Origin: an uncultured Gemmatimonadota bacterium | Lineage (GTDB): Bacteria > JAAXHH01 | Direction of reading: 5' to 3' | DNA length: 64,000 nt | Assembly (NCBI GenBank): GCA_951812955.1 | Contig: OX638340.1 | Coordinates: 352,001-416,000 of the forward strand | Shown here: in pieces, positions 189-38,640 of the stretch | Layout: every line of letters starts with the position of its first letter | How positions within the stretch are numbered: the stretch's first letter is position 1 | Notes under the pieces: model-generated | Told to the model about the DNA's origin: nothing | The model's input: only the letters and a program-made list of their open reading frames with translations | The model's database searches: none | Position numbers and translations under genes: made by a program

Positions 189-1148
189 ATGAGCTATCAC
201 TGGACGCAGGTTACCGATCGTGCCCCCTTTGCACCCCGCGACGGTGCCGGTGCACTGGTATTCGATGGGGCCATGTGGCTGATCGGTGGCTGGAATCCAC
301 GCGACGAGGTCCATTTCCCCCGGGTCTGCAGCAATGATGTCTGGCGGTCCACCGACGGGCGTGACTGGTCGCTGGTCAAGCCCAACACGTACGTGGACGA
401 CACCTTTGATACGAAGCAGGACTGGGCGGGGAGGCATACTGGCGGATACGCCTTGCACGACGGCGCCATGTGGCTGGTCGGAGGCGATGCAAACCAGGGC
501 TATCACCAGGGTGACGTCTGGATGTCCGCTGACGGTCGTAACTGGCGCTGCGTGCTCGAAGAAGCGCCTTGGGCGCCCCGTGTGTTGCACGGTACGGTGT
601 CCTGGATGGGCAAACTCTGGATATGGGGCGGCCAGACCATGCCCGGGTTCGCCGGCGGAGCTGACCGCTTCTACGACGATGCGTGGGTGTCGTCAGACGG
701 AATAGCGTGGACGCCGCTCGAGCCGAAGGAACCCCGATGGACTCCCCGGGGGATGGTGGGCGGCAGCGTCGTTCACGACGGACGCCTGTGGATCCTCGGC
801 GGCGGAACGTACGAGACTCCAAATACCCCCGGCCGAACGTTCCATAACGACGTGTGGAGCACCTCCGATGGGATCCATTGGAAATGCCACACCCGCAATG
901 CCCCTTGGTCTCCGCGACAGTATCATGATACGGTGGTTTTCGACGGAAGGATGTGGGTGCTGGCCGGATGGAACAGCCGGAACCTGAATGACGTCTGGTT
1001 TTCGTCGGACGGCATTGCCTGGCGCGAAGTGCCGGACACACCCTGGCCTGCCCGTCACGCGGCCAGCGTTTACGTTTACGACGATGCAATCTGGGTTGTA
1101 GCGGGCAGTCACATGGTCTCGGACGTGTGGAAGCTGGAGCGGGATTGA
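189..1148 (+). CDS. Kelch-repeat / galactose-oxidase-type beta-propeller protein
   Basis: 319-aa ORF with ~6 recurring blades built on 'NDVW-S-DG--W' / 'GG' motifs every ~50 aa (NDVWRSTDGRDW, GDVWMSADGRNW, DDAWVSSDGIAW, NDVWSTSDGIHW, NDVWFSSDGIAW). Confidence 0.55.
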   Translation: MSYHWTQVTDRAPFAPRDGAGALVFDGAMWLIGGWNPRDEVHFPRVCSNDVWRSTDGRDWSLVKPNTYVDDTFDTKQDWAGRHTGGYALHDGAMWLVGGDANQGYHQGDVWMSADGRNWRCVLEEAPWAPRVLHGTVSWMGKLWIWGGQTMPGFAGGADRFYDDAWVSSDGIAWTPLEPKEPRWTPRGMVGGSVVHDGRLWILGGGTYETPNTPGRTFHNDVWSTSDGIHWKCHTRNAPWSPRQYHDTVVFDGRMWVLAGWNSRNLNDVWFSSDGIAWREVPDTPWPARHAASVYVYDDAIWVVAGSHMVSDVWKLERD

Positions 1149-1198
1149 AGCGCAGCAAGCGCATCGGCAGTGTGAAGCCGAGGGCCGGAGGAGATGGA

Positions 1199-2035
1199 AT
1201 GGCGGAAGAGCAACCGGTGTCCCTGCTGACGCCTGAGGAGAAGTGGCACTTCGAACTGCAGGGTTACCTGCTGTTGTGCGGTGTCGTTCCGGAAAACGAC
1301 CTGGCCGAGATGCGTCCGGTCCTGGACCGCTGGCTGACCGCGGACGAGAATGATCTGCCCGCTCCGGTCAAGCGCGGCCGACAGGAGCCGAACAAGACCC
1401 ATATCGGCCATATCCACTATGGGCACGAAGTATTCCAGCGGCTCAACATGAACCCGGAGATCATCCGCGTGGTGGCCGGGCTGACCTGGGGATGCCCCCG
1501 GCTGATGCACTGCGTCTTCACCCACATGGTCAAGGGACCGGAAGAACTTCGTTTCCACCGGGATGACGACGGGGTCAAAGTCTCCCACGGATTCCGGAAT
1601 CCCAACAACGATTTCCAGGTGGCGGATGGCGAGATCTACTGCAGCCATCTGGCCACGTGGATCGCCCTGGCCGACGTGCCGCCGGGGACGGGATTCTGCC
1701 TGGTGCCTGGCAGCCACAAAACCACGGTCCCCGAACCGGATGGCCTGACCGTCGTACACGATCCGCCCGTGTCCATCACCATCCCAATGAAGGCGGGGGA
1801 CGTGATCATCTTTTCCACTCGCCTACTGCACAACGCCAGTCCGTGGACCGAGGACTATCCCCGCCTGAACATATTCCAGCGATACGTCTTCAGCTGGTTC
1901 TTCGATCTGCCCCATCTTTATCCGCTGGAAGACCACCGCGACAAGCTTTCGGACGACATGTACGAACTGGAGAAAATGACCCGCGAAGAGAAACAGGTCG
2001 TCCGACGGGTGCGGGAGATGCTGGTCGACTCGTAG
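1199..2035 (+). CDS. PhyH-family Fe(II)/2-oxoglutarate-dependent dioxygenase
   Basis: ORF 1127..2035; ATG at 1199 lies 7 nt after a GGAGGA Shine-Dalgarno sequence. 'HRDDD' H-x-D metal motif, 'GFCLVPGSHK' and distal His region typical of phytanoyl-CoA dioxygenase-like proteins. Confidence 0.7.
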   Translation: MAEEQPVSLLTPEEKWHFELQGYLLLCGVVPENDLAEMRPVLDRWLTADENDLPAPVKRGRQEPNKTHIGHIHYGHEVFQRLNMNPEIIRVVAGLTWGCPRLMHCVFTHMVKGPEELRFHRDDDGVKVSHGFRNPNNDFQVADGEIYCSHLATWIALADVPPGTGFCLVPGSHKTTVPEPDGLTVVHDPPVSITIPMKAGDVIIFSTRLLHNASPWTEDYPRLNIFQRYVFSWFFDLPHLYPLEDHRDKLSDDMYELEKMTREEKQVVRRVREMLVDS

Positions 2036-5012: not shown

Positions 5013-5858
5013 ATGGCGACCGGTTTGACCGAACACCAGATCAGTCAGTATCTCGAAGACGGTTTCCTTCCCATCGAAAGGCTGTTCGATCCCGATTCCC
5101 TCGATCCCCTGATCGCGGAGCTGAACGGGGTCGTCGATGCATGGGCGGAGCGCTACCACGCGGAGGGCAGACTGGCGGATCTGTACGCGGACGAGCCCTT
5201 TGAACACAGGCTGTACCGGATCCACCAGGCCATGGACGGTCGCTGCGGAGAAATGCTGGAGGCCGTGTTAGGAAAGCGGAAGACCGCGGGCATGTTTCAC
5301 GTCATGACCCTGCCCGGGATACTCGACGTCGTCGAATCCCTCATTGGCCCGGAGATCCTCGTCCATCCCCAGTTCAACTCCCGGGCCAAGCTTCCGGACA
5401 AGACCTCCGTCGTGGACTGGCACCAGGACATCGGTTTCCTGGATCCGGACGTGATGCGGACCTTCATGGTCAATTTCTGGCTGCCGATGGTGGATACAGA
5501 TGAACACAACGGCTGCCTGGAGGTGATCCGAGGCAGTCACCGCAGTGAACGCCTGCCCTTTGAGAATTCACCCGAGAACATCGACCCTGAAGCCCTGCCC
5601 GACGGCGACCGGGTGTCCTGCCCCATCCCCAGGGGCGGCGTGCTCCTGTTGCAGCACACCACGGTGCACCGGTCCGCGCCGAATTACTCCGATCATATTC
5701 GCTGGAGCCTGGATATCCGGTACAGCGACTGGCGAGCGCCCACGGGAAGGGACGATGTGCCCGGCTTCATCGCCCGCAGCCGGTCGCATCCGGAGAAGAT
5801 CGCAACCGGGCACGAAGAATGGCGGCGCTTGTTCGAGACGAGCGGGGCGCCGGAGTAA
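5013..5858 (+). CDS. PhyH-family Fe(II)/2OG dioxygenase
   Basis: 281-aa ORF; 'WHQDIGFLD' H-x-D motif, 'GCLEVIRGSH', distal 'HRSAPN'. Second PhyH paralogue in the window. Confidence 0.75.
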   Translation: MATGLTEHQISQYLEDGFLPIERLFDPDSLDPLIAELNGVVDAWAERYHAEGRLADLYADEPFEHRLYRIHQAMDGRCGEMLEAVLGKRKTAGMFHVMTLPGILDVVESLIGPEILVHPQFNSRAKLPDKTSVVDWHQDIGFLDPDVMRTFMVNFWLPMVDTDEHNGCLEVIRGSHRSERLPFENSPENIDPEALPDGDRVSCPIPRGGVLLLQHTTVHRSAPNYSDHIRWSLDIRYSDWRAPTGRDDVPGFIARSRSHPEKIATGHEEWRRLFETSGAPE

Positions 5859-11418: not shown

Positions 11419-12201
11419 CTAGCCAGCTGGAGACTCCGCTCCTTCTCCTGCCACGATTACTTCGGGTCTGAAGGACTTGAACGGACTGTTTTTCGAAGAT
11501 CTGCAGTGCGTGGAAGCGTAATGGTACTGCAGCGCCCTGCGGCGCCGATCGCTTTTGTTCGGCGGCGTGTAGTGGTAGGTTTCTCCGTGAAATACGAGGG
11601 CGTCGCCGGCCTTCATGTTGCAGGCGATCGCGTTGTTCTGCGCAGGTGCCGATGACAATCCGTAATCGTCTGCCACGCCACCGTGTTCCCCGATGCCTTC
11701 TCGGTGCGAACCGGGTATGACATGCATGCATCCGTTTTCGACATCGGTATCGTCGAGAGCGATCCAGAACCCGAAGACGTCGTTGGGCTCCAATCGGAAA
11801 TATGCGTTGTCCTGGTGCCAGACTTTCTGACCGCCGAACCGGGGCGGCTTCATCAAAAGCATGCTTTGAAACAGGGCGACATCCTGGCCAATCAGTTCGA
11901 CGGCGATACCCACCATGACGGGATGGTGGGCCAGGGACCGGAACAACTCGTTGTGCAAGGTCATCCTGAAGAGCTTCCTCACGCCGAGTTCCACGCTTTC
12001 TGGCTCTACCGACCCCCGTCGGACGGCGGGTTCGATCTGCACCAGTTCCTCCGGTACGTCCGGGTACCGGTCCACGATCGCGGTGATCTCCCGCTGTATG
12101 GACTTGACTTCGTCGGCTGAAAGAAACTCCTCCGCGACGAAGTACCCGTCTCGTTCAAATGCGGCTTTATGTGTTTCTGACAACACCGTCCCTGTAGTCA
12201 T
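11419..12201 (-). CDS. PhyH-family Fe(II)/2OG dioxygenase
   Basis: 260-aa ORF; 'WHQDNAYF' H-x-D, 'GCMHVIPGSH', C-terminal 'HGETYHYTPPN'. Third PhyH paralogue. Confidence 0.75.
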   Translation of the reverse strand: MTTGTVLSETHKAAFERDGYFVAEEFLSADEVKSIQREITAIVDRYPDVPEELVQIEPAVRRGSVEPESVELGVRKLFRMTLHNELFRSLAHHPVMVGIAVELIGQDVALFQSMLLMKPPRFGGQKVWHQDNAYFRLEPNDVFGFWIALDDTDVENGCMHVIPGSHREGIGEHGGVADDYGLSSAPAQNNAIACNMKAGDALVFHGETYHYTPPNKSDRRRRALQYHYASTHCRSSKNSPFKSFRPEVIVAGEGAESPAG

Positions 12202-12204
12202 CTC

Positions 12205-13218
12205 TCAGTCCTTCCAGTTGAATACGACCCCCATCATGTTCTTCTCCCGCCGGAATATCATCTCGTAGGCTTCGTTGATGCGGGTAAAGTGCATTCTATG
12301 GGTTACCAGGCGTTTCGGTTCCAGTTTGCCGCCGCGCATGAGGTCCAGCGTGTAGCGGCACATGTTCGTCCATCCCCTCCGGTCGCCCCGTTCCGATGGG
12401 TACAGGTAACCGGTCCGCCCGTTTATGGCAATCAGGGAGATCCCCTTGAAATAGAACCATTCCATGTCCAGCGGGTTGAAATCCAGCGGCGGCTCGCCCC
12501 GTCCCGGCAGGGCCACGATCCCTACCCGCCCGTTGTCGCGCACGATCTGGCACGAAGCGCGAAGGGCGGGCCATGGGTTGGCTGTGAGAATGACCAGGTC
12601 GATCCCCTCGCCACCGGTGAAGTCGTCCAGCTTCTCGTCGAGATCGGGATCGTTGTACAGGAAGGTCGCGTCCGCTCCCATGCGCTTGGCCATTTCCATG
12701 CGGACCGGGCTGTTCGCGATGCCGATCGTGCGGGCGCCGAGGCAGGGCCCGAGTCCTACGGCGCCGAGTCCGAGAACGCCGAGGCCGACAACGGCCACGT
12801 TCTCGCCAGGCTGGAACTGCGACTTGTAATAGCACTGGGCGCTCAATGTGTACAGGTGGCCGTATACGGCGTCCTCGTCATGCACGCCGTCAGGTACCTT
12901 CACGAGTACCTCGTCGTCCCTTGCGATGAACTCGGACTGGTGGGGGTAACGGGATATCACCCGGTCGCCCACGGCGAAATCCGTCACCGCCTCTCCCACG
13001 CCCCGGATGACGCCCAGATTGCTGTCTCCCACCCATCGCGGAAAATCGGGTGCGCCCGGGACCTGCTCCGCGCCCTCATAGTTTCCCCGGTCCGTACCGA
13101 TCTTGAGGGCGGAAATCACCGTTTCGACCCATAGTTCGTGGGGTCCCAGGTTATCCGTGTCCAGCGGATGTTCTTCGATACGAAGATCCCGCGGACCATG
13201 CAGCACGGCGATTTTCAT
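12205..13218 (-). CDS. Zinc-dependent alcohol dehydrogenase (MDR superfamily; threonine/sorbitol-dehydrogenase-like)
   Basis: ORF 12205..13275; start set at internal ATG 13218 ('MKIAVLHG') with GGAG upstream. 'GVLGLGAVGLG' Rossmann glycine motif and MDR catalytic domain. Confidence 0.75.
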   Translation of the reverse strand: MKIAVLHGPRDLRIEEHPLDTDNLGPHELWVETVISALKIGTDRGNYEGAEQVPGAPDFPRWVGDSNLGVIRGVGEAVTDFAVGDRVISRYPHQSEFIARDDEVLVKVPDGVHDEDAVYGHLYTLSAQCYYKSQFQPGENVAVVGLGVLGLGAVGLGPCLGARTIGIANSPVRMEMAKRMGADATFLYNDPDLDEKLDDFTGGEGIDLVILTANPWPALRASCQIVRDNGRVGIVALPGRGEPPLDFNPLDMEWFYFKGISLIAINGRTGYLYPSERGDRRGWTNMCRYTLDLMRGGKLEPKRLVTHRMHFTRINEAYEMIFRREKNMMGVVFNWKD

Positions 13219-13316
13219 GGATTCGGCTCCGGTTTTTTCGTGCGTGTGAGTTCTATCTTCTTCTTGTCCGATCAATTCCGATCAGGTCCTGCGTTTCACA
13301 AAAGTACCGGACCGCG

Positions 13317-14534
13317 TCAGGCCGACAGGGCGGAAAGGCAGCGGTCGTAGACTTCGAACCGCTCGCCTTCGGTTTCCTCCGGGTCTACCATCTTAAGCCA
13401 CATAGCACTGCCGGGCTTTGCCGAGCTGTAGGAACGATGGCTTCCGATGACGGAGGGATCCTCGCCGTGCCAGGCGATCTCTCCCTCCTGCATGTAGATG
13501 AATTTCCCCCGGTACCGGTCCACGATGTCCTTTCTGTGGTCGCGGTAGAACAGGCCCTGCTCGCAGGCCGTGCGCCTCAGGGTATGAATCAGTTCGGGCG
13601 CTTCGTCGATGTCCGAGTCGAAGTGCGCAACCGGCGCCTGAACGTCGCTTACGAAGTCGATTTCATCCAGGTCAACCGTACCGAAACCCCTCTGCGCGGC
13701 CACCAGCAGGTGATTGCGGTCGCGGCGGAAGGGCGGTGAGGGCCAGTCGGATGCGGGGTCGTGGCCCATCAGGAAAGCGCCGCAGGCGTCGGTGGCCGTG
13801 ATCTGGTCTCCCGCGATCAGCACGTCGCCAACGCGGCCTTCGCCACCCCATTCCCTGCCCTTCTGCCCCACGAGCCCATCGATGATATTCAGGCAGGGAT
13901 CCGTAATCATCGCGAGGTCGGGGAGGACGTAGGAAAGCCTTATGGCGTGGTGGAAGTAGGTGCGTACCCGTCCCTCCGGGCGAACGATGGGTGGTAGCCC
14001 GAAGAGGTTCTTCATGCAGAGCGTGATGCCCATGAAAAGGTGATTCTTCATCTTCGCCACGGAGATCACCTCGTCCGCGTCCTCGAACACGCCGCTCAGG
14101 ACATACCGGTCGAACATGTTTCCGCCACCGGGCACCTCGTATACAGCCCAGGGCGGACGGTTGGAATCATCGTACCTCACGTTGAACTCGCGGAGGTGAT
14201 GGACGTAATTGAACTCGTCCGGCGTGAGTTTATCCGTGGCGTAGGGATTGGTGTCCGTCGCGTAGATTTCCGCATCGGTATGTTCCCGAAGCAACTGAAG
14301 CACGGCCCTGCAGACCGCGTCGTCCACCAGTTCCTGTCGGCGGCCCTTGAACCGGACGACGCTGTCCATGGGCTTCATCATGTTGAACTTGATGACGATC
14401 TTCCTGGCCTTTTCTATGCGCGCCCAGGACTCCTTTAGCGGTTCGGTGATGCGTCTCAGCGTCTCGTAGACGCCCTGATAGTCCGTCTGATGGTCGCAGG
14501 ACGTTGCACGAACGGAGTATTGCTTTACCGGCAT
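13317..14534 (-). CDS. DUF362-family protein
   Basis: 405-aa ORF with the 'KMKNHLFMGITLCMKNLFG' core typical of DUF362 proteins. Confidence 0.5.
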   Translation of the reverse strand: MPVKQYSVRATSCDHQTDYQGVYETLRRITEPLKESWARIEKARKIVIKFNMMKPMDSVVRFKGRRQELVDDAVCRAVLQLLREHTDAEIYATDTNPYATDKLTPDEFNYVHHLREFNVRYDDSNRPPWAVYEVPGGGNMFDRYVLSGVFEDADEVISVAKMKNHLFMGITLCMKNLFGLPPIVRPEGRVRTYFHHAIRLSYVLPDLAMITDPCLNIIDGLVGQKGREWGGEGRVGDVLIAGDQITATDACGAFLMGHDPASDWPSPPFRRDRNHLLVAAQRGFGTVDLDEIDFVSDVQAPVAHFDSDIDEAPELIHTLRRTACEQGLFYRDHRKDIVDRYRGKFIYMQEGEIAWHGEDPSVIGSHRSYSSAKPGSAMWLKMVDPEETEGERFEVYDRCLSALSA

Positions 14535-14826: not shown

Positions 14827-15414
14827 GTGAATGCGGACTTGAACGTTCTTCGGAAATTCATACGGTTCGTGGACGCGCTCAACGAACGTGTCGGCACGAT
14901 CGTTTCCTGGTTCACGACCTTGCTCGTGTTAACAGTCTGTCTCGACGTTTTTACCCGGTATTTCCTGCGCAGCAGCAGCGTGGCGGTGCAGGAACTGGAG
15001 TGGCATTTCTTCGCGGTGATCTTCCTGCTTGCCTCGGCCTGGGCCCTCAAGCACAACAAGCACGTCCGCGTAGACGTGCTTTACATGAATTTCACGCCCA
15101 GAAACCAGGCCCTCGTCAACCTGATCGGCAGCTTGCTGTTTCTGCTTCCCTTCGCGGTAATCGCCATCTGGAGTTCCCAGAATTTCGTCCTGAATTCCTT
15201 CCGGATAGGGGAGGTTTCACCCGATCCAGGGGGACTGCCTGCCCGCTATATACTGAAAGCCATGATCCCCATAGGATTTTCGCTGATACTCCTGCAGGGG
15301 CTGGCCATGGCGGCACGTTCCTTCGACCGGTTCATTCACGACGGAGAAGACCCCATGGGCGAAAGCGATGAATCTCCCCCTAAGGGCCTTTCAGCCAGGG
15401 AGGACACGGTTTGA
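14827..15414 (+). CDS. dctQ: TRAP transporter small permease subunit (DctQ family)
   Basis: 195-aa ORF with 4 TM helices in the DctQ pattern; its stop overlaps the start of the large subunit gene (TTGA). Confidence 0.75.
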   Translation: MNADLNVLRKFIRFVDALNERVGTIVSWFTTLLVLTVCLDVFTRYFLRSSSVAVQELEWHFFAVIFLLASAWALKHNKHVRVDVLYMNFTPRNQALVNLIGSLLFLLPFAVIAIWSSQNFVLNSFRIGEVSPDPGGLPARYILKAMIPIGFSLILLQGLAMAARSFDRFIHDGEDPMGESDESPPKGLSAREDTV

Positions 15415-16724
15415 CCGAAGCGATGCCGCTCATCCTCTTTGCGGTCCTGTTCCTGCTGCTCCTGATGGGGTATCCCGTCGCCTTCACCCTCGGCGGCGTG
15501 TCCGTATTGCTCGGACTGATGACCTTCGGCGCGGATTTCTTCAACCTGCTGCCCCTACGCATCTGGGGAGTGATGACGAATTACGTGCTCCTCGCCGTTC
15601 CCCTGTTCGTCTATATGGGCGTCATGCTGGAAAAATCAGGCCTCGCGGAGGACATGCTGGAGACCATGGCCCTGCTATTCGGCCGCCTGCGCGGCGGTCT
15701 TGCCGTAGCGGTCGTGGTCGTTGGCGCGCTGCTGGGCGCATCGACGGGTATTGTGGGAGCGACGGTCGTGACCATGGGCCTTCTCAGCCTGCCTACCATG
15801 CTGAGGAGGGGTTACAGTCCACCCGTGGCCACGGGGACGATCGCCGCGTCGGGTACGCTCGGCCAGATCATCCCGCCCAGCGTGGTGCTCGTGCTGCTCG
15901 GAAGCATCCTCAACGTGTCGGTCGGAGATATGTTCATCGGCGCCGTCATTCCTGGCGCGATTCTCGTGGGCATGTACCTGGTATGGCTTGCCATCGTGGC
16001 CATATTCAAACCGGAGGAAGCCCCGGCCATGCCGTCCGAGGAACTGGCCGCGTTCCGGGAAAAGGGGATGTTCAGAAAGATCATCCGGGCATTTCTCCTT
16101 CCCCTGGGCCTGATGACCGTCGTGCTGGGATCCATCTTTGCGGGCGTCACCTCGCCGACGGAAGCGGCTGCCGTGGGCGCGCTAGGCGCGACGCTCCTCA
16201 CCGTCTTCCAGGGCAAGTTCTCCTATGAAACACTGAAGGCGGTCATGAAGGAGTGCACGCATATCACGTGCATGGTTTTCTTCGTACTCGTAGGCGCCGA
16301 AGCCTTCGGACTGGTTTTTCGGGGAATGAGAGGCGATGCGTTCATGACCGCGCTGATCCTGGACGCGAACCTGAGTACCTACGCCTTCATGGCGCTGGTC
16401 CTGGTCATGATCTTCATTGCCGGTTTCTTCATCGATTTCATCCAGATCACCTACATCATCGTCCCGGTCGTCACGCCTATCTTCATCGTTTTGGGGGTCG
16501 ACCTGCTCTGGCTCGGCATCCTGATCGCGGTGAACCTGCAGACGTCCTTTCTCACGCCACCTTTTGGATTCTCCCTATTCTACCTGAAAGGCGTGGCGCC
16601 GCCCGAAGTGCAGACCCGGCATATCTACAGTGGTATTCTACCCTTTGTCGTGATACAACTCATCTGCCTGGGTTTGCTGGTCTACACCCCCGCGCTCGCA
16701 ACGTGGCTGCCCAGCCTGCGCTAG
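15411..16724 (+). CDS. dctM: TRAP transporter large permease subunit (DctM family)
   Basis: 437-aa ORF, ~12 TM helices, strong DctM-like sequence ('GYPVAFTLGGVSVLLGL', 'GQIIPPSVVLVLLG'). TTG at 15411 or ATG at 15420 are both possible starts. Confidence 0.85.
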   Translation: MTEAMPLILFAVLFLLLLMGYPVAFTLGGVSVLLGLMTFGADFFNLLPLRIWGVMTNYVLLAVPLFVYMGVMLEKSGLAEDMLETMALLFGRLRGGLAVAVVVVGALLGASTGIVGATVVTMGLLSLPTMLRRGYSPPVATGTIAASGTLGQIIPPSVVLVLLGSILNVSVGDMFIGAVIPGAILVGMYLVWLAIVAIFKPEEAPAMPSEELAAFREKGMFRKIIRAFLLPLGLMTVVLGSIFAGVTSPTEAAAVGALGATLLTVFQGKFSYETLKAVMKECTHITCMVFFVLVGAEAFGLVFRGMRGDAFMTALILDANLSTYAFMALVLVMIFIAGFFIDFIQITYIIVPVVTPIFIVLGVDLLWLGILIAVNLQTSFLTPPFGFSLFYLKGVAPPEVQTRHIYSGILPFVVIQLICLGLLVYTPALATWLPSLR

Positions 16725-16730
16725 ATGAGG

Positions 16731-18374
16731 TTAATACCCGATCGCGCAACCGTCCTTACGAGGTTCCGACGCGCCGTGCAGCTTGCCTGTTTCCGGGTCG
16801 ATCCGGATCGCCTGGTAACCGCCGTACCCGTGGGAAGACCGGGATATTCGATGGCCCTTCTCCACAAGCCCGCGGAAGGCGTCCTCGCCGATGCCTTCTT
16901 CCACGTTGACCCGGCCTCCACCAGCCTCCATGGGCGTACCCGTAGGTTCGGCCGAACCGAAGTGTTGAAAACGTGGCGCGTCACCCGCCTCCTGCACGTC
17001 CATACCGAAATCGATCATGTTGCAGAGTACCTGAACATGTCCCTGCGGCTGCATGGCGCCGCCCATCAAGCCGAAGGTAAGCCAGGGCTTCCCGTTCCGG
17101 GTAACCATGGCCGGGATGATGGTATGGAAGGGGCGCTTGTGTGGAACAAGGGCGTTGCGGTGCGCGGGATCGAGCGAGAAGAGCTGACCCCGGTTCTGAA
17201 TCGGAAACCCCGTACGCTCCGGAACGATGCCTGATCCGAATCCGTGAAAAATGCTCTGGATGAAAGAGACGGCGTTGCGGTCTTTGTCTACGACCGTCAT
17301 GTAGGCCGTATCCCCGTGCTGCAGCACGGGATCTCCGGCCGGTACGTCGATCGCCGCGCGGCGGGGATCGATGCGTTCGCGCTGCCTGTCGGCGTAGGCC
17401 TTTGATAGCAGGGCCTCGACGGGAACATCCGCGAAGGATGGGTCGGCATAGTACTCCGCCCGGTCCGCATAGGCGAGTTTCTTGGCCTCGATCTGCAGGT
17501 GCAGTGTGTCCGCCGTTAGGCATCCCGTTTCGGCGAGGTCGTAACCTTCCAGCATATTGAGCATCTGCAGGGCCGCAATACCCTGCCCGCTCGGCGGCAG
17601 TTCCCAGACGGTGTGCCCCCGGTATTCGGCGCACACGGGATCGTCCCAGGTCGACGCGTGATCCCTGAAGTCATCGAGGCTGAACAGTCCTCCGACGGTC
17701 TTTGAACAGGCCACGATGGCTTCGGCGATTTCGCCGTGGTAGAACGCGTCGCGACCTCCTTCGGCCAGGATGCGGTAGGATCGTCCCAGGTCCGGGTTCC
17801 TGAAATCGGCGCCGGGTTCGGGCGCCTTTCCTCCGGGCAGGTAGACCCTTGCGGACTCGGGCCAGGGGCTCAGCAGTGGCATGGATCCAGTCCAGTCCCG
17901 CGCGATGATGTCCGAAACCGGGAACCCGTTCTCCGCGTACCAGATAGCAGGTTCCAGTACCTGTCCGAGGGACATCGTGCCGAAGCGATCGAGGAGGCAG
18001 TTCCAGCCGTCTACGCAACCGGGTACGGACCAGCTCAGCGGCCCGGAACCCGGGATGTATTCGTGTCCCTGGCCCCGGTAGTATGCGATCGACGCCCCGT
18101 AGGGCGCCCTGCCGCTCGCGTTGAGTCCGGTCAACCTGTCGCTTCCCGCCTCGCTGACAATGGCGAATAGATCGCCGCCGATGCCGCAGGACATGGGTTC
18201 CACCACACCGAGTACCGCGTTGACGGCGATGGCGGCATCTATGGCGTTGCCGCCCGCTTTGAGGATGTCAATGCCCGCCTGGGCCGCCAGCGGCTGGCTC
18301 GTGGCCACCATGCCTCTGGGCGCTATGACGACCGAGCGTCGCGAGGCTCGGTATTCGTAGGGATCATATCGCAT
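16731..18374 (-). CDS. ggt: Gamma-glutamyltranspeptidase
   Basis: 547-aa ORF; autoprocessing nucleophile region 'GDTAYMTVVDKDRNAVSF' and C-terminal 'GGAMQPQ' small-subunit signature. Confidence 0.85.
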   Translation of the reverse strand: MRYDPYEYRASRRSVVIAPRGMVATSQPLAAQAGIDILKAGGNAIDAAIAVNAVLGVVEPMSCGIGGDLFAIVSEAGSDRLTGLNASGRAPYGASIAYYRGQGHEYIPGSGPLSWSVPGCVDGWNCLLDRFGTMSLGQVLEPAIWYAENGFPVSDIIARDWTGSMPLLSPWPESARVYLPGGKAPEPGADFRNPDLGRSYRILAEGGRDAFYHGEIAEAIVACSKTVGGLFSLDDFRDHASTWDDPVCAEYRGHTVWELPPSGQGIAALQMLNMLEGYDLAETGCLTADTLHLQIEAKKLAYADRAEYYADPSFADVPVEALLSKAYADRQRERIDPRRAAIDVPAGDPVLQHGDTAYMTVVDKDRNAVSFIQSIFHGFGSGIVPERTGFPIQNRGQLFSLDPAHRNALVPHKRPFHTIIPAMVTRNGKPWLTFGLMGGAMQPQGHVQVLCNMIDFGMDVQEAGDAPRFQHFGSAEPTGTPMEAGGGRVNVEEGIGEDAFRGLVEKGHRISRSSHGYGGYQAIRIDPETGKLHGASEPRKDGCAIGY

Positions 18375-18379
18375 GGTCT

Positions 18380-19192
18380 CTATGCTCTCCGGTCGGTTGA
18401 TCGGTGGAAGCAGGACTCGGCGTTGTGCCGGGGCGCGTAGCCGATCTCTTCCTTCGGGGTCTCAATGTCGAAGATGTTGTAGGTGTTGTCCGAAATGACG
18501 AAGTAATGCCGCGCGGGGGGCAAGCTGCCGTTGCGATGGGCCGTATACGCCGCGTGCACCATGGACGCCGCGTCCCGCTGGTGACACCATACCGCGAAGT
18601 ACCCGCGTTCTTCCATGATGGGCGTATTCCCGGGGTTTACACCTCCCCAGCGCGTCGCCAGCGCGCCACAACCCCGGTCAGACGCCCGTTTCACCCAGGA
18701 CTCGACGTAGGCCTTCTCCCGGCCGTAGTCGTTTATCGGACAGGGCGGCGTATGCGCGGAGAGCGGCGGGGGCCAGTCTACGATCTCATCGAACTTCCGC
18801 TCGGCGATCAACGCGTACGTGCCCGACTCGAAAAAGCGGTAAGCGTCGTCTACCGCGTGCACGGAGCTCGAACCCACGATCATCGGACTGCGGTCCAGGG
18901 CCAGCACCGATTCAAACACCAGGTCCGTCATATGGTTCATGACGGCGAGATCGCCCTTCCGGGCCAGGTAGACGACGAGATCGAAACCGGGCAGCAGATC
19001 CCTGAACCGGTCCGGTTCTTCGGTGATGTCCATATAGATGAACCGGCCTTCAGCGCGGCCCTCGGCCCTGTCGGGGGCTCCGGGCAGGTCGATGGAACAG
19101 AATCGGTATCTTTCGTCCATCTCCGGCAGGTACCGGCGAAGTCCGGATCCGATCGTCCCCCTGCCGCCGATGAGCAACGTATTAAAAGCCAT
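18380..19192 (-). CDS. NAD-dependent epimerase/dehydratase family protein (extended SDR)
   Basis: ORF 18380..19252; start at internal ATG 19192 ('MAFNTLLIGGRGTIGSGL' Rossmann motif), 10 nt downstream of the Fe-ADH stop codon. Confidence 0.7.
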   Translation of the reverse strand: MAFNTLLIGGRGTIGSGLRRYLPEMDERYRFCSIDLPGAPDRAEGRAEGRFIYMDITEEPDRFRDLLPGFDLVVYLARKGDLAVMNHMTDLVFESVLALDRSPMIVGSSSVHAVDDAYRFFESGTYALIAERKFDEIVDWPPPLSAHTPPCPINDYGREKAYVESWVKRASDRGCGALATRWGGVNPGNTPIMEERGYFAVWCHQRDAASMVHAAYTAHRNGSLPPARHYFVISDNTYNIFDIETPKEEIGYAPRHNAESCFHRSTDRRA

Positions 19193-19202
19193 ACGATTCC
19201 CC

Positions 19203-20372
19203 TCAATAGGCTTCCATATAGAGCGATTTGATTTCGTTCGCCGTGGGAACACGCGGGTTGTTCTGCGGACTTCCCGATAAGAGCGCGTCCTCGGCCATCT
19301 TGTCCAGCGCGCCGGTCAGGGCCTCTTCAGATATGCCACAGTCCCGCAGTCCAGGGATTTCGACGGTATCATTGAGTTTCTGCAGACCGTCGACAAGCAA
19401 ATCGCAGGCTTCGGACGCATTGTGTTCTTCCCCCGCCCACCCGAGCTTCCGGGCCAGGATGGCGTAGCGTTCGGGCGCCGAGGATACGCTGAACCGGGTG
19501 ACGGCCGGCAGGAGGACCGAGTTGCTCAGGCCGTGGGGAAGATGAAATACCGCTCCGAGCGGCCTGCTCATGCCGTGCACGAGACAGACGGAGCTGTTGG
19601 CGAAGGCCATTCCGCCCAGGGAGGCCGCTTCCATCATGCCCTTACGGGCGGCGTGATCGCCGGGTTGGCGCCAGGCCCGCTCGAGGTGCCTGCCGACGAG
19701 GTCGACGCAGGCAAGGGCGAGCGGGTCCGTCATCGTGCCCGCCTTGCGGGAGACGAACGCTTCGATTCCGTGCGTCAGGGTATCCACGCCCACATTGGCC
19801 GTGAGCGGCGGGGGCATGGACAGGGTCAGTGTGTAGTCGACGAAGGCCGCGGTAGGCAGAAGGTGCGCATCCAGCATCATCATCTTCACGTTTCGAATCG
19901 TATCCGTAATGACGGTCACGCGGGTCATTTCGCTCCCGGTACCTGCGGTAGTGGGGATAGCGAAAAGCGGTACGCCGGGCCGGGGTATGCGGTGATAGCC
20001 GGCGTATCCGGACAGGGGTCCGTCATTCGTCGCCATGACAGCGATGCCCTTGCCGGCGTCGATGCTGCTTCCGCCGCCCACCGCGATGACGGCGTCGCAG
20101 CCGTTTGACCGGAATACCGCCAATCCTTCTTCCACGTTCACATCCGTGGGTTCCGTCGTCACGCCCCCGTATACATGGGCATCAAGGTCCGCCTGGCGGC
20201 ATTGTTCCACGATTCGCGCGGGCAGGCCCTGTTCGACCAAATAGGGATCGGAGACCAGCAGGACGTTCTTAAGTCCGCTGCGTCTGGCCTGTGGGACGGC
20301 TTCATCGAATGCCCCGGCGCCGGTGAAAATAATGGAAGGTATATTGATCTGAACGGGGCCGGACATCCTCAC
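19203..20372 (-). CDS. Iron-containing (group III) alcohol dehydrogenase
   Basis: 389-aa ORF; 'GGGSSIDAGK' NAD-binding motif and His-rich metal site ('HGMSRPLGAVFHLPHG'). Confidence 0.85.
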   Translation of the reverse strand: MRMSGPVQINIPSIIFTGAGAFDEAVPQARRSGLKNVLLVSDPYLVEQGLPARIVEQCRQADLDAHVYGGVTTEPTDVNVEEGLAVFRSNGCDAVIAVGGGSSIDAGKGIAVMATNDGPLSGYAGYHRIPRPGVPLFAIPTTAGTGSEMTRVTVITDTIRNVKMMMLDAHLLPTAAFVDYTLTLSMPPPLTANVGVDTLTHGIEAFVSRKAGTMTDPLALACVDLVGRHLERAWRQPGDHAARKGMMEAASLGGMAFANSSVCLVHGMSRPLGAVFHLPHGLSNSVLLPAVTRFSVSSAPERYAILARKLGWAGEEHNASEACDLLVDGLQKLNDTVEIPGLRDCGISEEALTGALDKMAEDALLSGSPQNNPRVPTANEIKSLYMEAY

Positions 20373-21691
20373 GTCACTCCCTCGATCACGTCGCTGTATT
20401 GCCTGAAGGAGCCGGAGGTCACGACCTCGGCCAGCGCCTGCACGGCGTTGTTCAATTCCTCGTAAGTCGTGTAAAGCGGCGCGATGCCCAGTCTGATGTT
20501 GTCCGGCATTCGGAAATCTGAAATGACCTTTTTCTCTTCCCGGATGGCCTGGTCGATGCGGTAACCCTCGTCATGGCCGAATGAGACGTGCGATCCCCTG
20601 CGGTCGCCGTTCCGCGGAGAGTTCAGTCTGAACCCGAGTGGCATCAGCACGGATTCCCAGAGGGATACCAGGTATTCCGACTGATCGATCGACTTGGTAC
20701 GAATGGGACCAATGCCGGCTTCGAGCGTGAGATCCACACCGGGTTCAATCATGGCAAGCGACAGGACGGACGGCGTGCCCGTGAGATAGCGGTCTATGCC
20801 CGCCGCCGGTTCGAATTCGGTATCGAAATAGAATTGTTTCCGGTGGCCGAACCAGCCTGAAACCGGGTTGATCAGCCGGGACTGCAGGTCGTCCCGGACA
20901 TAAAGAAACGCCGGTGCGCCCGGGCCGCCGTTCAGGTACTTGTACGTGGAACCCACCGCCAGGTCGATACCCAGGTCGTGACATGCCATGGGTACGACGC
21001 CGGCGGAATGGCTCAGGTCCCAAAGGATCATCGCGTCCCGCCTATGGGCGATTTCGGTTATCCGCGCAAGGTCGTACATGTAACTGGACTTGTACATGAC
21101 GTGAGAAAGGAGCACCAGGGCGGTATCGTCGTCGATGGCCCGTTCCAGGGTCTCATCGGATACGGCAAAGCCGTTGTCCACCGGGAGAACAACCAGTTCG
21201 TACGCGGGATCGAGCAGGTCCGCCACGGCCTTCAGGATATAGATGTCGGATGGGAAATTAACGCGGTCGGTCACGATTTTACGCCGTCCCTGCCGCTCCT
21301 TGAGCGCGCCGGCAATCAGCTTGAACAGGTTGACCGAAGTGGAGTCGGCGATGATTACTTCGTCCGGCAAAGCGCCGATCAGTCCGGCCAGCTTGGCGCC
21401 GATACGCCTGGAAAGCCCCATCCATTCGTCATTCCAGGCCCGGATCAGGCGGTTTCCCCACTGATGCCGGACCAGCCGGTCCATCAGGGCGACGGAGTCT
21501 TTCGGAACCCGTCCAAGGGAATTGCCATCCAGGTATATCAGGCCGGGGTCGTCAATCAGGAAGCGTTCCCGGAACCTGCCTAACTGGTCACGACGGTCCA
21601 ATGCTCGTGCCTGTTCGAGCGACGTGTCGAAGTCCAAACACACACCTCCACGTTTCATTCCGTGGCGGGAATGGGAGTCGAAGGGACGCAA
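20369..21691 (-). CDS. kynU: Kynureninase-like PLP-dependent hydrolase
   Basis: 440-aa ORF; 'IYLDGNSLG' N-terminal signature, class-V aminotransferase fold with 'GSTYKYLNGGPG' PLP-lysine region. Stop/start overlap with the Fe-ADH gene (ATGA). Confidence 0.8.
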   Translation of the reverse strand: MRPFDSHSRHGMKRGGVCLDFDTSLEQARALDRRDQLGRFRERFLIDDPGLIYLDGNSLGRVPKDSVALMDRLVRHQWGNRLIRAWNDEWMGLSRRIGAKLAGLIGALPDEVIIADSTSVNLFKLIAGALKERQGRRKIVTDRVNFPSDIYILKAVADLLDPAYELVVLPVDNGFAVSDETLERAIDDDTALVLLSHVMYKSSYMYDLARITEIAHRRDAMILWDLSHSAGVVPMACHDLGIDLAVGSTYKYLNGGPGAPAFLYVRDDLQSRLINPVSGWFGHRKQFYFDTEFEPAAGIDRYLTGTPSVLSLAMIEPGVDLTLEAGIGPIRTKSIDQSEYLVSLWESVLMPLGFRLNSPRNGDRRGSHVSFGHDEGYRIDQAIREEKKVISDFRMPDNIRLGIAPLYTTYEELNNAVQALAEVVTSGSFRQYSDVIEGVT

Positions 21692-21764
21692 AAAAGAAAA
21701 TCGAAATGTATACGTGGAGGGAGGTCAGGACAAGTGGAATGTCGGCATCACGCCGGGCGTCGAG

Positions 21765-21818
21765 GTCACATCGCGCTTCGGGGTCACGTCGCGCTTCGGG
21801 GTCACGTCGTGCGGCCGA
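21765..21818. repeat. 18-bp tandem repeat (gtcac[a/g]tcgcgcttcggg), ~2.5 copies
   Basis: Direct tandem copies at 21765-21782 and 21783-21800, and a degenerate copy at 21801-21818, in the intergenic region between kynU and the DUF218 gene. Confidence 0.7.
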
Positions 21819-37731: not shown

Positions 37732-37773
37732 CAGGGCTCCTCATCGCCCGTTATATTGCCGCATGAAAAGCTT

Positions 37774-37847
37774 GCGCCAGTAGCTCAGCTGGATAGAGCG
37801 ACGGCCTCCGGAGCCGTAGGTCAGAGGTTCGAATCCTCTCTGGCGTA
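37774..37847 (+). tRNA. tRNA-Arg (anticodon CCG)
   Basis: Cloverleaf folded by hand: acceptor GCGCCAG/CTGGCGT (G1-U72 wobble), D arm GCTC...GAGC, anticodon stem ACGGC/GCCGT with loop CTCCGGA (anticodon CCG), T arm AGAGG-TTCGAAT-CCTCT; no encoded CCA. Confidence 0.8.
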
Positions 37848-37896
37848 TAACCCCCGCGGATCAGCCTTCTCTGGCGTATATCCCCGCGGATCAGCC
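37837..37896. repeat. 30-bp tandem direct duplication of the tRNA-Arg 3' end plus flank (att-like scar)
   Basis: tctctggcgtataacccccgcggatcagcc (37837-37866) followed by tctctggcgtatatccccgcggatcagcc (37868-37896); the first copy includes the last ~11 nt of the tRNA. Confidence 0.7.
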
Positions 37897-38640
37897 CCGC
37901 CCTCCTGCCTGGTCATCATCGTCTTCTTCGCCAAGGTAAAGTTCGTTTTTCAGCAGATAACTTACCGTGGATGCATACCAACGGGTTTCCCTTGAAACCG
38001 CCGATGCACGTTTGGTGGGCACCTTCTGCTCATTGAGTTCATCCGCGATCTTGCGCAGGCTCCTGCCCTCGGCCCGCCAGTGCTTCACCTGCCTGATGAT
38101 CTCCTGCTCCCTTGAGTTGGGCACCAGCTGATTGCCGGACAGGTCGTATCCGTAAGGGATCGCGCCGTAAACGAACCGGTTGTTCTTTTTTTTCCGTATC
38201 CAGTTCTTCGTCCGCTCGGCGGGCAGGTCGCGGGCCAAACCGGCCAGCACGTTGAGCGTGCTCAGCACCACCTTCCCCTGTTCCTGATCGGTGCGGATGG
38301 ACATGCCATCGAGATCCAGCACGTGGCATATGATGCCTGCGCCGGACCAGGCCCCGAGGCAACCCGACATTTCGGCCGCTGACCTGAACAGCCGGTCGAG
38401 TCGCCAGATAACGATATGCTGGATGCCCTTCGATTCAACCGTGTTGGCCAGGTCCCGGCCACCCAGCCGATCCTCGAGCGGGATGAACGCCTCGACTCGG
38501 ATGTCGGGAATCACCAGCATGATGTCGAGGTCGTTTTCCGCGCAGTAGGACCTGAGCCGCTTCTCCTGGTCGGCCCTTCGAAAGGGATGCTTCCGGGTCT
38601 CCATCGGACCGACCCTGATATAGCATACCGCCTTTTTCAT
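37891..38640 (-). pseudogene. Truncated / probably inactive serine recombinase (resolvase-type N-terminus plus the start of a large-serine-recombinase 'recombinase' domain)
   Basis: 249-aa ORF. 'AVCYIRVGP' sits where 'Y-x-R-V-S' is expected (catalytic Ser replaced by Gly); conserved 'IVIWRLDRLFRS'; 'RFVYGAIPYGYDL...WYASTVSYLLKNELYLG' matches the start of the large-serine-recombinase recombinase domain, but the protein ends ~250 aa short, at the tRNA att-like repeat. Confidence 0.5.

What the first reader, a model, noticed from the sequence alone, without database searches (positions are those of the whole stretch)
16731..21691. Unusual four-gene operon: kynureninase-like PLP hydrolase, Fe-ADH, NAD-epimerase/dehydratase, gamma-glutamyltranspeptidase
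These four minus-strand genes are tightly packed (ATGA overlap kynU/Fe-ADH; 10-nt and 5-nt gaps for the next two), which implies co-translation. The enzyme combination (beta,gamma-type PLP hydrolase, metal-dependent alcohol/aldehyde dehydrogenase, SDR epimerase, gamma-glutamyl hydrolase/transferase) does not match the canonical kynurenine pathway (no TDO/KMO/formamidase nearby). It may be a pathway for a gamma-glutamylated or aromatic amino-acid-derived compound.
Basis: inference. Interest (0 to 1): 0.5.

Follow-up and report, generated by a model that had tools for sequence, protein, structure and literature searches.

The report
Conserved kynureninase operon with unusual partners
Four tightly packed genes (a normal-looking kynureninase, an iron alcohol dehydrogenase, a small NAD-dependent dehydrogenase and an intracellular gamma-glutamyl-hydrolase-like enzyme) form a real operon that is conserved in uncultured sponge-associated bacteria and their free-living relatives, and it probably breaks down imported modified amino acids, though its substrate is unknown.

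Summary
Four co-directional minus-strand genes sit at 16731-21637 with gaps of 2, 10 and 5 nt. The family assignments are right. Two details need correcting: the kynU/Fe-ADH junction is a 2-nt gap (or a GTGA overlap), not ATGA, and kynU most likely starts at TTG 21637.

The window comes from a sponge/coral-associated MAG clade labelled Latescibacterota or Gemmatimonadetes. All 21 species-level relatives keep the same arrangement and spacing.

The cluster also occurs in four other arrangements, two of them with unrelated flanks. The fuller version is kynU-FeADH-SDR-[ArgE/DapE-type M20]-[arginine-deiminase-like]-GGT. kynU and FeADH are always adjacent, and GGT is present wherever the contig reaches that far. 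Both kynU and FeADH from the cluster form monophyletic clades. This points to selected linkage, not chance adjacency.

The "kynureninase-like" enzyme is indistinguishable from canonical L-kynurenine hydrolases at every known active-site and specificity position. The GGT is the intracellular, hydrolase-only GtGGT/YwrD/2NLZ type. The SDR is an orphan whose closest fold is uronate dehydrogenase.

No TDO, formamidase or KMO lies in the 64 kb. The rest of the genome could not be checked.

Best reading: a lineage-specific catabolic or salvage operon for modified amino acids. The substrate is unknown. Interest is moderate.

The parts
20369..21637 (-). kynU: kynureninase (PLP-dependent L-kynurenine hydrolase), 422 aa, TTG start
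   Evidence: Pfam KYNU_C plus Aminotran_5, and TIGR01814 above its cutoff. PDB 1QZ9 matches at E=1.2e-107. K227, W64, G281, T282 and R375 are all conserved. The 422-aa length matches homologues. RBS GGAGG at 21649-21645.
19203..20366 (-). Group III iron-dependent alcohol dehydrogenase, 387 aa (ATG 20366; alternative GTG 20372 overlaps the kynU stop)
   Evidence: Pfam Fe-ADH plus ADH_Fe_C. Below every NCBIfam equivalog cutoff. Best PDB matches are methanol dehydrogenase, 1,3-propanediol dehydrogenase and FucO, E=1e-67 to 1e-79. The GGGS motif and D195/H199/H264/H278 are invariant in the cluster clade.
18380..19192 (-). Orphan short extended-SDR dehydrogenase, 270 aa
   Evidence: Weak Pfam Epimerase match and no PDB sequence match. 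AF2 model has pLDDT 90.9. Best fold match is uronate dehydrogenase 3RFX at TM 0.70, then SDR-type L-threonine dehydrogenases and sugar-nucleotide enzymes. The GxxGxxG motif, S109/S110, Y156 and K160 are invariant.
16731..18374 (-). Intracellular GGT-family Ntn hydrolase (GtGGT/YwrD/2NLZ, MEROPS T03.A09 type), 547 aa, no signal peptide
   Evidence: Pfam G_glu_transpept E=3.9e-154. PDB 2NLZ matches at E=7e-127. The Thr nucleophile and Gly-Gly oxyanion hole are kept. EcGGT R114, S462/S463, N411, Q430 and D433 are replaced by S, H/T, F, R and L. The R114 and S462/S463 replacements are those described for intracellular extremophile GGTs (PMC8062742).
21695..21745 (-). Conserved non-coding block upstream of kynU (candidate promoter or operator, e.g. 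TTGTCC-17-TACATT)
   Evidence: Nearly invariant across 10 species whose surrounding intergenic sequence diverges. Does not reach the sigma-70 scan threshold. No Rfam match. Its function is inferred.
14827..16724 (+). Context: TRAP transporter membrane subunits DctQ (14827-15414) and DctM (15411-16724), converging on the GGT gene with a 6-nt gap; possible importer
   Evidence: Pfam DctQ and DctM. Syntenic with the cluster in the sponge clade and in arrangement B, but absent from arrangements C-E. No DctP in the window.

Best explanation
This is a real, selectively maintained operon in an uncultured Latescibacterota-like lineage. The window's version is a reduced, sponge-symbiont form.

Transcription probably starts at a conserved block upstream of kynU and runs through all four genes.

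All four products are cytoplasmic enzymes:
1. KynU is a bona fide kynureninase. It hydrolyses L-kynurenine, or a very close aryl gamma-oxo amino acid, to anthranilate plus L-alanine.
2. The GGT-like Ntn hydrolase is of the intracellular, hydrolase-only class. It removes a gamma-glutamyl-type or related acyl amide group and releases glutamate.
3. The Fe-ADH and the Udh/TDH-like SDR interconvert an alcohol and a carbonyl on the substrate or on a cleavage product.

The ancestral cluster additionally encoded an ArgE/DapE-type deacylase and an arginine-deiminase-like guanidino hydrolase. The set therefore reads as a toolkit for stripping N-substituents from imported modified amino acids and cleaving them, to recover Ala, Glu and anthranilate as nitrogen and carbon sources. 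In the sponge clade this toolkit lies beside a TRAP transporter.

Shown: gene order, conservation, family membership and active-site residues. Inferred: co-transcription, the substrates and the order of the steps.
For: - Gaps of 2, 10 and 5 nt with RBS-like motifs.
- Identical spacing in 21 species-level genomes.
- The core is retained in four further arrangements: K-F-M20-ADI-G, K-F-S-M20-ADI-G, PhyH-K-F-S-ADI-x-G and PhyH-MBL-K-F-S-M20-ADI-x. In the last two (L092-L095) the flanks share nothing with the window.
- Cluster kynU and cluster Fe-ADH are each monophyletic among 92 sequences per tree.
- A conserved upstream non-coding block lies ahead of kynU, and no sigma-70 consensus match lies inside the operon.
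- KynU active-site and specificity residues are all canonical.
- The GGT keeps its catalytic Thr and Gly-Gly, lacks a signal peptide, and matches the hydrolase-only intracellular class.
- The SDR catalytic residues are invariant and the fold is confidently dehydrogenase-like.
Against: - No substrate is identified, and no known pathway needs exactly this enzyme set.
- Kynureninase products (anthranilate, alanine) need neither an ADH nor an SDR.
- All cluster-bearing genomes belong to one broad lineage, so part of the conservation could be inheritance rather than selection.
- SDR, M20 and the ADI-like gene are each dispensable in some lineage. SDR homologues also occur outside the cluster, in sugar-acid-like neighbourhoods.
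- The promoter assignment is only a conserved block below consensus threshold.
- The TRAP transporter has no DctP and is not linked in arrangements C-E.
Confidence: 0.45

Rival explanations
1. Co-transcribed but functionally unrelated genes. KynU is simply the housekeeping last step of tryptophan-to-anthranilate catabolism, with TDO and formamidase encoded elsewhere. Fe-ADH, SDR and GGT serve other processes. The order persists through shared ancestry and convenient co-regulation.
For: - KynU is canonical in every tested residue.
- Even clearly canonical kynB-kynU pairs in other phyla lack an adjacent TDO.
- Non-cluster Fe-ADH relatives and SDR relatives live in unrelated contexts.
- Accessory genes come and go between lineages.
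Against: - kynU-FeADH adjacency survives about 35% protein divergence and complete turnover of flanking genes.
- The 2-nt gap or 4-nt overlap between kynU and Fe-ADH is kept in the sponge clade and in arrangement E; arrangements B-D have gaps of about 11-27 nt.
- Both genes show clade-specific co-inheritance.
- Gene order at this divergence is rarely kept without functional coupling (general knowledge).
Confidence: 0.3
2. A novel amino-acid degradation route in which the kynureninase homologue does not act on kynurenine. Instead it cleaves a gamma-oxo amino acid (hydrolytically) or a gamma-hydroxy amino acid (by retro-aldol). The SDR makes the gamma-oxo group, and the Fe-ADH handles the aldehyde or alcohol product. 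The logic resembles carnitine biosynthesis (hydroxylase, PLP aldolase, dehydrogenase). The ADI-like and ArgE-like genes in fuller versions point to a basic or guanidino amino acid.
For: - It explains why two dehydrogenases always or usually accompany kynU.
- SDR fold neighbours include L-threonine 3-dehydrogenases, which oxidise a hydroxy amino acid.
- Kynureninase is known to catalyse retro-aldol cleavage of dihydrokynurenine (my own knowledge; Phillips and Dua 1991, not checked here).
- PhyH-family hydroxylase genes lie directly upstream in two arrangements.
- The only clade-specific column (M73, Pf R70) aligns with human I110, which I recall as pocket-lining (from memory, not checked here).
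Against: - All residues that bind the aryl ring and set L-kynurenine specificity are unchanged.
- The upstream PhyH genes are not orthologous to each other or to the window's PhyH genes.
- The window's clade has lost the ADI-like and M20 genes yet keeps the core.
Confidence: 0.2
3. A small biosynthetic cluster that uses kynureninase to supply anthranilate or 3-hydroxyanthranilate. The GGT homologue would act as a maturation or C-C cleaving enzyme, as in pyrrolobenzodiazepine and lincomycin pathways.
For: Those pathways combine kynurenine-pathway genes with a GGT homologue of the LmbA type (from memory, not checked here).
Against: - No NRPS, PKS, L-DOPA dioxygenase, methyltransferase or exporter lies in or near any version of the cluster.
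- The GGT is closest to 2NLZ/GtGGT-type hydrolases.
Confidence: 0.05

Closest known systems
Bacterial kynurenine (anthranilate) pathway genes kynA-kynB-kynU, e.g. Pseudomonas; P. fluorescens KynU, PDB 1QZ9
   Same: KynU is an orthologue: 50% identity, E=1e-107. It has the same PLP lysine and the same catalytic and L-kynurenine-type specificity residues. It nests phylogenetically among kynU genes that sit next to kynB-type cyclase genes.
   Different: No kynA (TDO) or kynB is in the cluster or in the 64-kb window. The partners here are an Fe-ADH, an SDR and a GGT-like hydrolase, which have no role in the known pathway.
Intracellular lid-loop-less GGTs (Geobacillus thermodenitrificans GtGGT, B. 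subtilis YwrD, B. halodurans 2NLZ; MEROPS T03.A09)
   Same: No signal peptide. Thr nucleophile and Gly-Gly oxyanion hole are kept. It shows the same R114-to-S and S462/S463-to-H/T substitutions. 2NLZ matches at E=7e-127.
   Different: The physiological role of this class is itself unassigned (PMC8062742, PMC3625958). Here it sits in a conserved operon with kynureninase, which has not been described in the papers I could search.
Gamma-glutamylation catabolic pathways (Puu putrescine, Ipu isopropylamine, GlnA4 ethanolamine)
   Same: They combine a gamma-glutamyl amide hydrolase with alcohol or aldehyde dehydrogenases acting on a gamma-glutamyl-tagged amine (from memory).
   Different: Those pathways need a glutamine-synthetase-like gamma-glutamyl ligase and use a class-I amidotransferase-type hydrolase. 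No such ligase is in any version of the cluster. None of those pathways contains a kynureninase.
Uronate dehydrogenase (A. tumefaciens Udh, 3RFX) and SDR-type L-threonine 3-dehydrogenases
   Same: Closest folds to the 270-aa SDR: TM 0.70 for 3RFX, with similar length and a Ser/Tyr/Lys catalytic set.
   Different: Only 19% identity and no sequence-level PDB hit. Far below the NCBIfam Azf cutoff (35 against 400 bits). The substrate is unknown.

Membership tests
Kynureninase (EC 3.7.1.3, TIGR01814) | Scores above the curated equivalog cutoff and has the KYNU_C domain | tested here: met
   257.5 bits against a cutoff of 246.4; PF22580 E=1.9e-25.
Kynureninase (EC 3.7.1.3, TIGR01814) | PLP-binding Lys227 and catalytic/PLP residues D201, Y226, F129, D132, W256, R375 (P. 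fluorescens numbering) | tested here: met
   All are conserved in the window and in 100% of cluster-clade sequences. The residue roles come from my own knowledge of 1QZ9.
Kynureninase (EC 3.7.1.3, TIGR01814) | Specificity triad: W64/G281/T282 for the L-kynurenine type, against H/S/N for the 3-hydroxykynurenine type | tested here: met
   The window has W68/G287/T288. Human KYNU has S-N at the corresponding GT site. The window is the L-kynurenine type.
Kynureninase (EC 3.7.1.3, TIGR01814) | Hydrolyses L-kynurenine to anthranilate plus alanine | not testable with these tools
   Needs an enzyme assay.
Canonical kynurenine-pathway gene set (kynA/kynB/kynU, with or without KMO) | TDO/IDO and kynurenine formamidase encoded with or near kynU | tested here: not met
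   No PF03301, PF04199 or KMO-type protein among the window's ORFs or in the flanks of any cluster locus.
Group III Fe-dependent alcohol dehydrogenase | Both Fe-ADH domains, the GGGS NAD motif and the Asp/His3 metal site | tested here: met
   PF00465 and PF25137. G97-S100, D195, H199, H264 and H278 are invariant. The metal-site mapping to FucO is from memory.
Group III Fe-dependent alcohol dehydrogenase | Assignment to a named equivalog (FucO, ErcA, GbsB, EutG, SarD and others) | tested here: not met
   The best score is 316 bits against a cutoff of 550. Specificity is unassigned.
Gamma-glutamyltranspeptidase (E. coli/B. subtilis type) | Autoprocessing Thr nucleophile and Gly-Gly oxyanion hole | tested here: met
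   A Thr aligns with T391, and GG aligns with G483/G484.
Gamma-glutamyltranspeptidase (E. coli/B. subtilis type) | Gamma-glutamyl-binding residues R114, N411, Q430, D433 and S462/S463; signal peptide | tested here: not met
   These positions are S, F, R, L and H/T in the window. The N-terminus is not hydrophobic. The R114-to-S and S462/S463-to-H/T changes match the intracellular extremophile/YwrD class.
Extended SDR (NAD epimerase/dehydratase superfamily) | Rossmann GxxGxxG motif and a Ser...YxxxK catalytic set; SDR fold | tested here: met
   GGRGTIG motif; S109/S110, Y156 and K160 are invariant. AF2 pLDDT 90.9; Foldseek probability 1.0 to SDRs.
Gamma-glutamylation amine-catabolic pathways (Puu/Ipu type) | Glutamine-synthetase-like gamma-glutamyl ligase in the cluster | tested here: not met
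   No Gln-synt-type gene in the cluster, its variants or the window.

The most novel reading that the evidence does not exclude
The cluster encodes an undescribed, TDO-independent route that ends in, or re-purposes, a canonical kynureninase. One version is catabolism of a gamma-glutamyl- or N-acyl-kynurenine-type conjugate taken from the host or from dissolved organic matter. Another is dehydrogenase-coupled cleavage of a gamma-hydroxy or gamma-oxo amino acid. Either would give the first physiological role to the widespread, uncharacterised intracellular GGT class (MEROPS T03.A09) and to an orphan SDR family.
Probability: 0.2. Interest if true: 0.65.

Novelty: new variant of a known kind. Interest (0 to 1): 0.4.

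Why it matters
Each enzyme belongs to a known family. The conserved combination was not found in the papers I could search.

The operon ties a textbook kynureninase to three enzymes whose physiological substrates are unknown. One of them belongs to a GGT class found in all kingdoms that still has no assigned role.

The operon is universal in a clade of abundant sponge and coral symbionts, so it may mark a host-derived nutrient, such as a kynurenine-type or gamma-glutamyl compound, exchanged in that symbiosis.

The cluster gives a concrete, testable set of four small soluble enzymes for substrate discovery.

Tried and rejected
1. Neofunctionalised kynureninase. I looked for clade-specific active-site changes and found only two clade-specific columns (M73 and C-terminal G420). 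All key residues are canonical. I rejected this as the default reading.
2. PhyH hydroxylase as a conserved cluster member. The upstream PhyH genes in L092 and L094 and the three PhyH genes in the window are not orthologous to each other. Dropped from the core.
3. Inferring Fe-ADH function from the wider 386-aa family at 52-62% identity. The 78 such metagenome loci carry none of the cluster genes. Among the longer ones examined for neighbours, the only recurrent neighbour is an upstream aldehyde dehydrogenase, in 6 loci. This suggests only a generic alcohol/aldehyde role.
4. Inferring SDR function from non-cluster homologues. Their contexts vary (PhyH, MR_MLE, HpcH aldolase, GFO_IDH_MocA) and are sugar-acid-like. 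This is suggestive, not decisive.
5. A riboswitch or known RNA in the leader. No credible Rfam match (one chance-level microRNA hit inside the Fe-ADH gene, E=0.15).
6. The sigma-70 and terminator scans were uninformative. Nothing in the operon exceeded the shuffled expectation.
7. An apparent SDR-GGT fusion in some relatives was an artefact of split HSPs. Translation shows a stop codon between the two genes.
8. Literature searches for this gene combination, for kynureninase in sponge symbionts and for 'kynureninase-like' enzymes found nothing relevant.
9. TDO or formamidase elsewhere in the genome could not be tested.

Full report

Yes. The ORF listing gives four consecutive minus-strand ORFs at 20369-21691, 19203-20372, 18380-19252 and 16731-18374.

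Pfam and NCBIfam confirm the families:
- Kynureninase: KYNU_C plus Aminotran_5; TIGR01814 scores 257.5 bits against a cutoff of 246.4.
- Group III Fe-ADH.
- A weak NAD-epimerase/dehydratase match (E=2.8e-6).
- GGT: PF01019 E=3.9e-154.

I read the junctions directly:
- The kynU stop (TGA, 20371-20369) is followed after 2 nt by an in-frame ATG (20366). Alternatively a GTG at 20372 overlaps the stop as GTGA. It is not an ATGA overlap.
- Fe-ADH stop to SDR ATG (19192) is 10 nt and contains GAGG.
- SDR stop to GGT ATG (18374) is 5 nt.

The ORF listing starts for kynU (TTG 21691) and the SDR (GTG 19252) are too far upstream. A TTG at 21637 with GGAGG 7 nt upstream gives a 422-aa KynU, the length of essentially all homologues. 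That start and its RBS are conserved in relatives.

**2. Source organism and conservation in close relatives**

A scan of GTDB species genomes with KynU returned 21 loci at 81-99% identity. All are MAGs from sponges or corals, labelled inconsistently as Gemmatimonadetes or Candidatus Latescibacterota. L009 (APA_bin_41) is 99% identical.

All 21 loci carry kynU-FeADH-SDR, followed by GGT wherever the contig continues. They also share the window's flanks: a DUF218/SanA-like gene upstream, convergent TRAP dctQM downstream, then DUF362-ZnADH-PhyH.

Spacing is also conserved (corrected):
- The 2-nt kynU/FeADH gap is found in all but one, where my tblastn-based start gave 8 nt.
- The FeADH/SDR gap is 9-11 nt in most.
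- The SDR/GGT gap is about 5-50 nt.

Because the flanks are syntenic too, this alone does not separate selected linkage from recent common ancestry.

**3. Conservation beyond the clade**

This is the key result. The look-ups below started from KynU, SDR and Fe-ADH homologues at about 63-66% identity. They found the cluster in four more arrangements:
- **B** (L004, L005, L025, L129; marine): kynU-FeADH-M20-ADI-like-small ORF-GGT, converging on dctMQ.
- **C** (JGI 3300072015, ERZ4109989): DUF218 ... kynU-FeADH-SDR-M20-ADI-like-small ORFs-GGT-BNR.
- **D** (L092, L093; a MAG labelled Zixibacteria and a JGI metagenome): PhyH-kynU-FeADH-SDR-ADI-like-148 aa-GGT-Pyridox_ox_2....
- **E** (L094, L095): PhyH-MBL-kynU-FeADH-SDR-M20-ADI-like-118 aa (the contig ends here).

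In D and E none of the window's flanking genes is present. kynU and Fe-ADH are adjacent in every case, with a 4-nt overlap in E. GGT is present wherever the contig reaches. SDR, the ArgE/DapE-type M20 deacylase and the arginine-deiminase-like protein are each missing from at least one lineage.

The ancestral order was therefore probably K-F-S-M20-ADI-G, and the window's clade has a reduced K-F-S-G form.

Tree evidence:
- In an NJ tree of 92 KynU sequences, all cluster-linked KynUs form one clade nested inside ordinary bacterial kynureninases.
- The same holds for cluster-linked Fe-ADHs among 92 Fe-ADH sequences.

Outside this clade the linkage disappears:
- The remaining 59 KynU loci carry none of the partner genes.
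- 78 Fe-ADH loci at 52-62% identity carry no partner genes.
- SDR homologues at 56-65% identity sit in other contexts.

Keeping the core through about 35% protein divergence and full turnover of flanks is good evidence for a selected operon. The caveat is that all carriers belong to one broad lineage.

**4. Transcription**

The roughly 184-nt region between the DUF218 stop and the kynU start contains a block of about 50 nt (window 21745-21695...GACATTCCACTTGTCC...CGTATACATT...). It is nearly invariant across ten species while its surroundings diverge. One possible reading is TTGTCC-17-TACATT.

The block is below the sigma-70 scan threshold. The scan found no promoter-like site inside the operon, and terminator-like hits did not exceed the shuffled expectation. 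No credible Rfam family matches.

Co-transcription is therefore inferred, not shown.

**5. What each protein is**

*KynU.* It is 50% identical to P. fluorescens kynureninase (1QZ9, E=1.2e-107). I rebuilt the 1QZ9 sequence from that alignment and aligned it with 92 sequences.
- K227, D201, Y226, F129, D132, W256, R375 and S36 are invariant.
- The specificity triad that separates L-kynurenine enzymes (W64/G281/T282) from 3-hydroxykynurenine enzymes (H102/S332/N333 in human) is W/G/T in the window and in every cluster sequence. The residue roles are from my own knowledge of the 1QZ9 and 3E9K literature.
- Only two columns are clade-specific. One is M73 (Pf R70), which aligns with human I110, a residue I recall as pocket-lining. 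That column is variable among ordinary kynureninases.
- Relatives at 52-62% identity in Chloroflexota and Bacteroidia sit beside PF04199 cyclase-type genes, the kynB formamidase family.

This is a kynureninase, not merely 'kynureninase-like'.

*Fe-ADH.* Both domains are present, along with the GGGS motif and the Asp/His3 metal ligands. The nearest structures are methanol dehydrogenase, DhaT and FucO. It is far below every NCBIfam equivalog cutoff. Its nearest non-cluster relatives sometimes follow an aldehyde dehydrogenase gene. It is a generic small alcohol/aldehyde oxidoreductase of unknown substrate.

*SDR.* It has no PDB sequence hit. Its family is small: 226 hits, mostly unnamed, with named ones from Gemmatimonadetes, Latescibacteria and Zixibacteria MAGs. 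The catalytic residues are invariant. A confident AF2 model (pLDDT 90.9) is closest to uronate dehydrogenase (3RFX, TM 0.70). Next come sugar-nucleotide SDRs and SDR-type L-threonine dehydrogenases.

*GGT.* It has no signal peptide. Its best PDB match is the unpublished B. halodurans 'cephalosporin acylase' 2NLZ (E=7e-127).
- The Thr nucleophile and the Gly-Gly oxyanion hole are kept.
- EcGGT R114, N411, Q430, D433 and S462/S463 align with S, F, R, L and H/T.
- A review reports the same R-to-S and SS-to-HT replacements for intracellular extremophile GGTs. It says the related YwrD has no assigned role (PMC8062742).
- MEROPS lists 2NLZ under the uncharacterised identifier T03.A09 (PMC3625958).

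**6. Surroundings**

Pfam annotation of the window's ORFs shows no TDO, IDO, cyclase-type formamidase or KMO.

The convergent TRAP dctQM (14827-16724) has no dctP. It is syntenic only in arrangements A and B.

**7. Interpretation**

*Best reading (0.45).* This is a selected catabolic or salvage operon for imported modified amino acids.
- A true kynureninase releases anthranilate and alanine.
- A hydrolase-only intracellular GGT-type amidohydrolase removes a gamma-glutamyl-like group.
- Two dehydrogenases adjust an alcohol or carbonyl.
- The deacylase and guanidino hydrolase in fuller versions fit a 'strip and cleave' logic.

*Rivals.*
- Functionally unrelated passengers retained by ancestry or co-regulation (0.30).
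- A new route in which the kynureninase cleaves a non-kynurenine gamma-oxo or gamma-hydroxy amino acid made or consumed by the dehydrogenases (0.20). This is mechanistically attractive, but the unchanged aryl-binding and specificity residues argue against it.
- Biosynthesis (0.05), for which no hallmark genes are present.

**8. Novelty and score**

Every component belongs to a known family, and KynU is ordinary. The conserved combination, and a genomic anchor for the unassigned intracellular GGT class and an orphan SDR family, were not found in the literature I could search.

It is a new variant of a known kind of system (a catabolic operon), of moderate interest (0.4). It would be more interesting if a TDO-independent substrate or a host-derived kynurenine or gamma-glutamyl nutrient were demonstrated.

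Noticed in passing
window 21748-21809: An 18-nt tandem repeat in 3.4 copies (TCACGTCGCGCTTCGGGG on the + strand). It lies between the DUF218/SanA-like stop and the conserved block upstream of kynU. It is degenerate in L001 and absent from the other relatives aligned.
   Followed up: partly
window 37773-38640: tRNA-Arg(CCG) at 37773-37848 (+) is immediately followed by a 249-aa serine recombinase (Resolvase plus Recombinase domains) on the opposite strand. This looks like a remnant of an integration site, just upstream of the rimP-nusA-infB operon.
   Followed up: no
window ~50900-52100: A low-GC island (0.39-0.45 against about 0.60 for the window). It spans the end of a 482-aa ORF with no Pfam match (49683-51131), a small ORF (51097-51489, GC3 0.45) and the start of a Zn-ADH-like gene (51765-52919). 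It may be foreign DNA.
   Followed up: no
window 14827-16724: TRAP transporter dctQ/dctM has no adjacent dctP solute-binding gene. The dctM stop and the GGT stop converge with only 6 nt between them and no terminator hairpin.
   Followed up: partly
window 1127-2035, 5013-5858, 11419-12201: Three mutually distant PhyH-family Fe(II)/2-oxoglutarate dioxygenase genes lie within 12 kb, next to MR_MLE and amidohydrolase genes. The DUF362-ZnADH-PhyH operon (11419-14534, minus strand) is syntenic across the sponge clade.
   Followed up: partly
L012 12447-13330; L027 12447-13300: In some sponge-clade relatives the SDR carries a Pro/Gly-rich, collagen-like low-complexity insertion (e.g. PGRPGSPGRPGSPGGPDGPDSPGGPGRPD) in the region between the Rossmann core and the catalytic Ser.
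   Followed up: no
L094 6893-7837; L055, L064, L071 near kynU; L008 9433-10428: An MBL-fold protein (RNase Z/GntH-like by NCBIfam) lies next to kynU in cluster arrangement E. tblastn-similar genes lie within 6 kb of canonical kynU in three unrelated genomes. L008 also has an MBL-fold gene directly after kynB-kynU. It may be an accessory enzyme of kynurenine metabolism.
   Followed up: partly
L092 5298-5744; L094 13585-13941; L004 6124-6258: Small ORFs with no family match (44-148 aa) recur between the ADI-like gene and GGT in the fuller cluster versions. The L094 one starts with a lipoprotein-like signal. They are not obviously homologous to each other.
   Followed up: no
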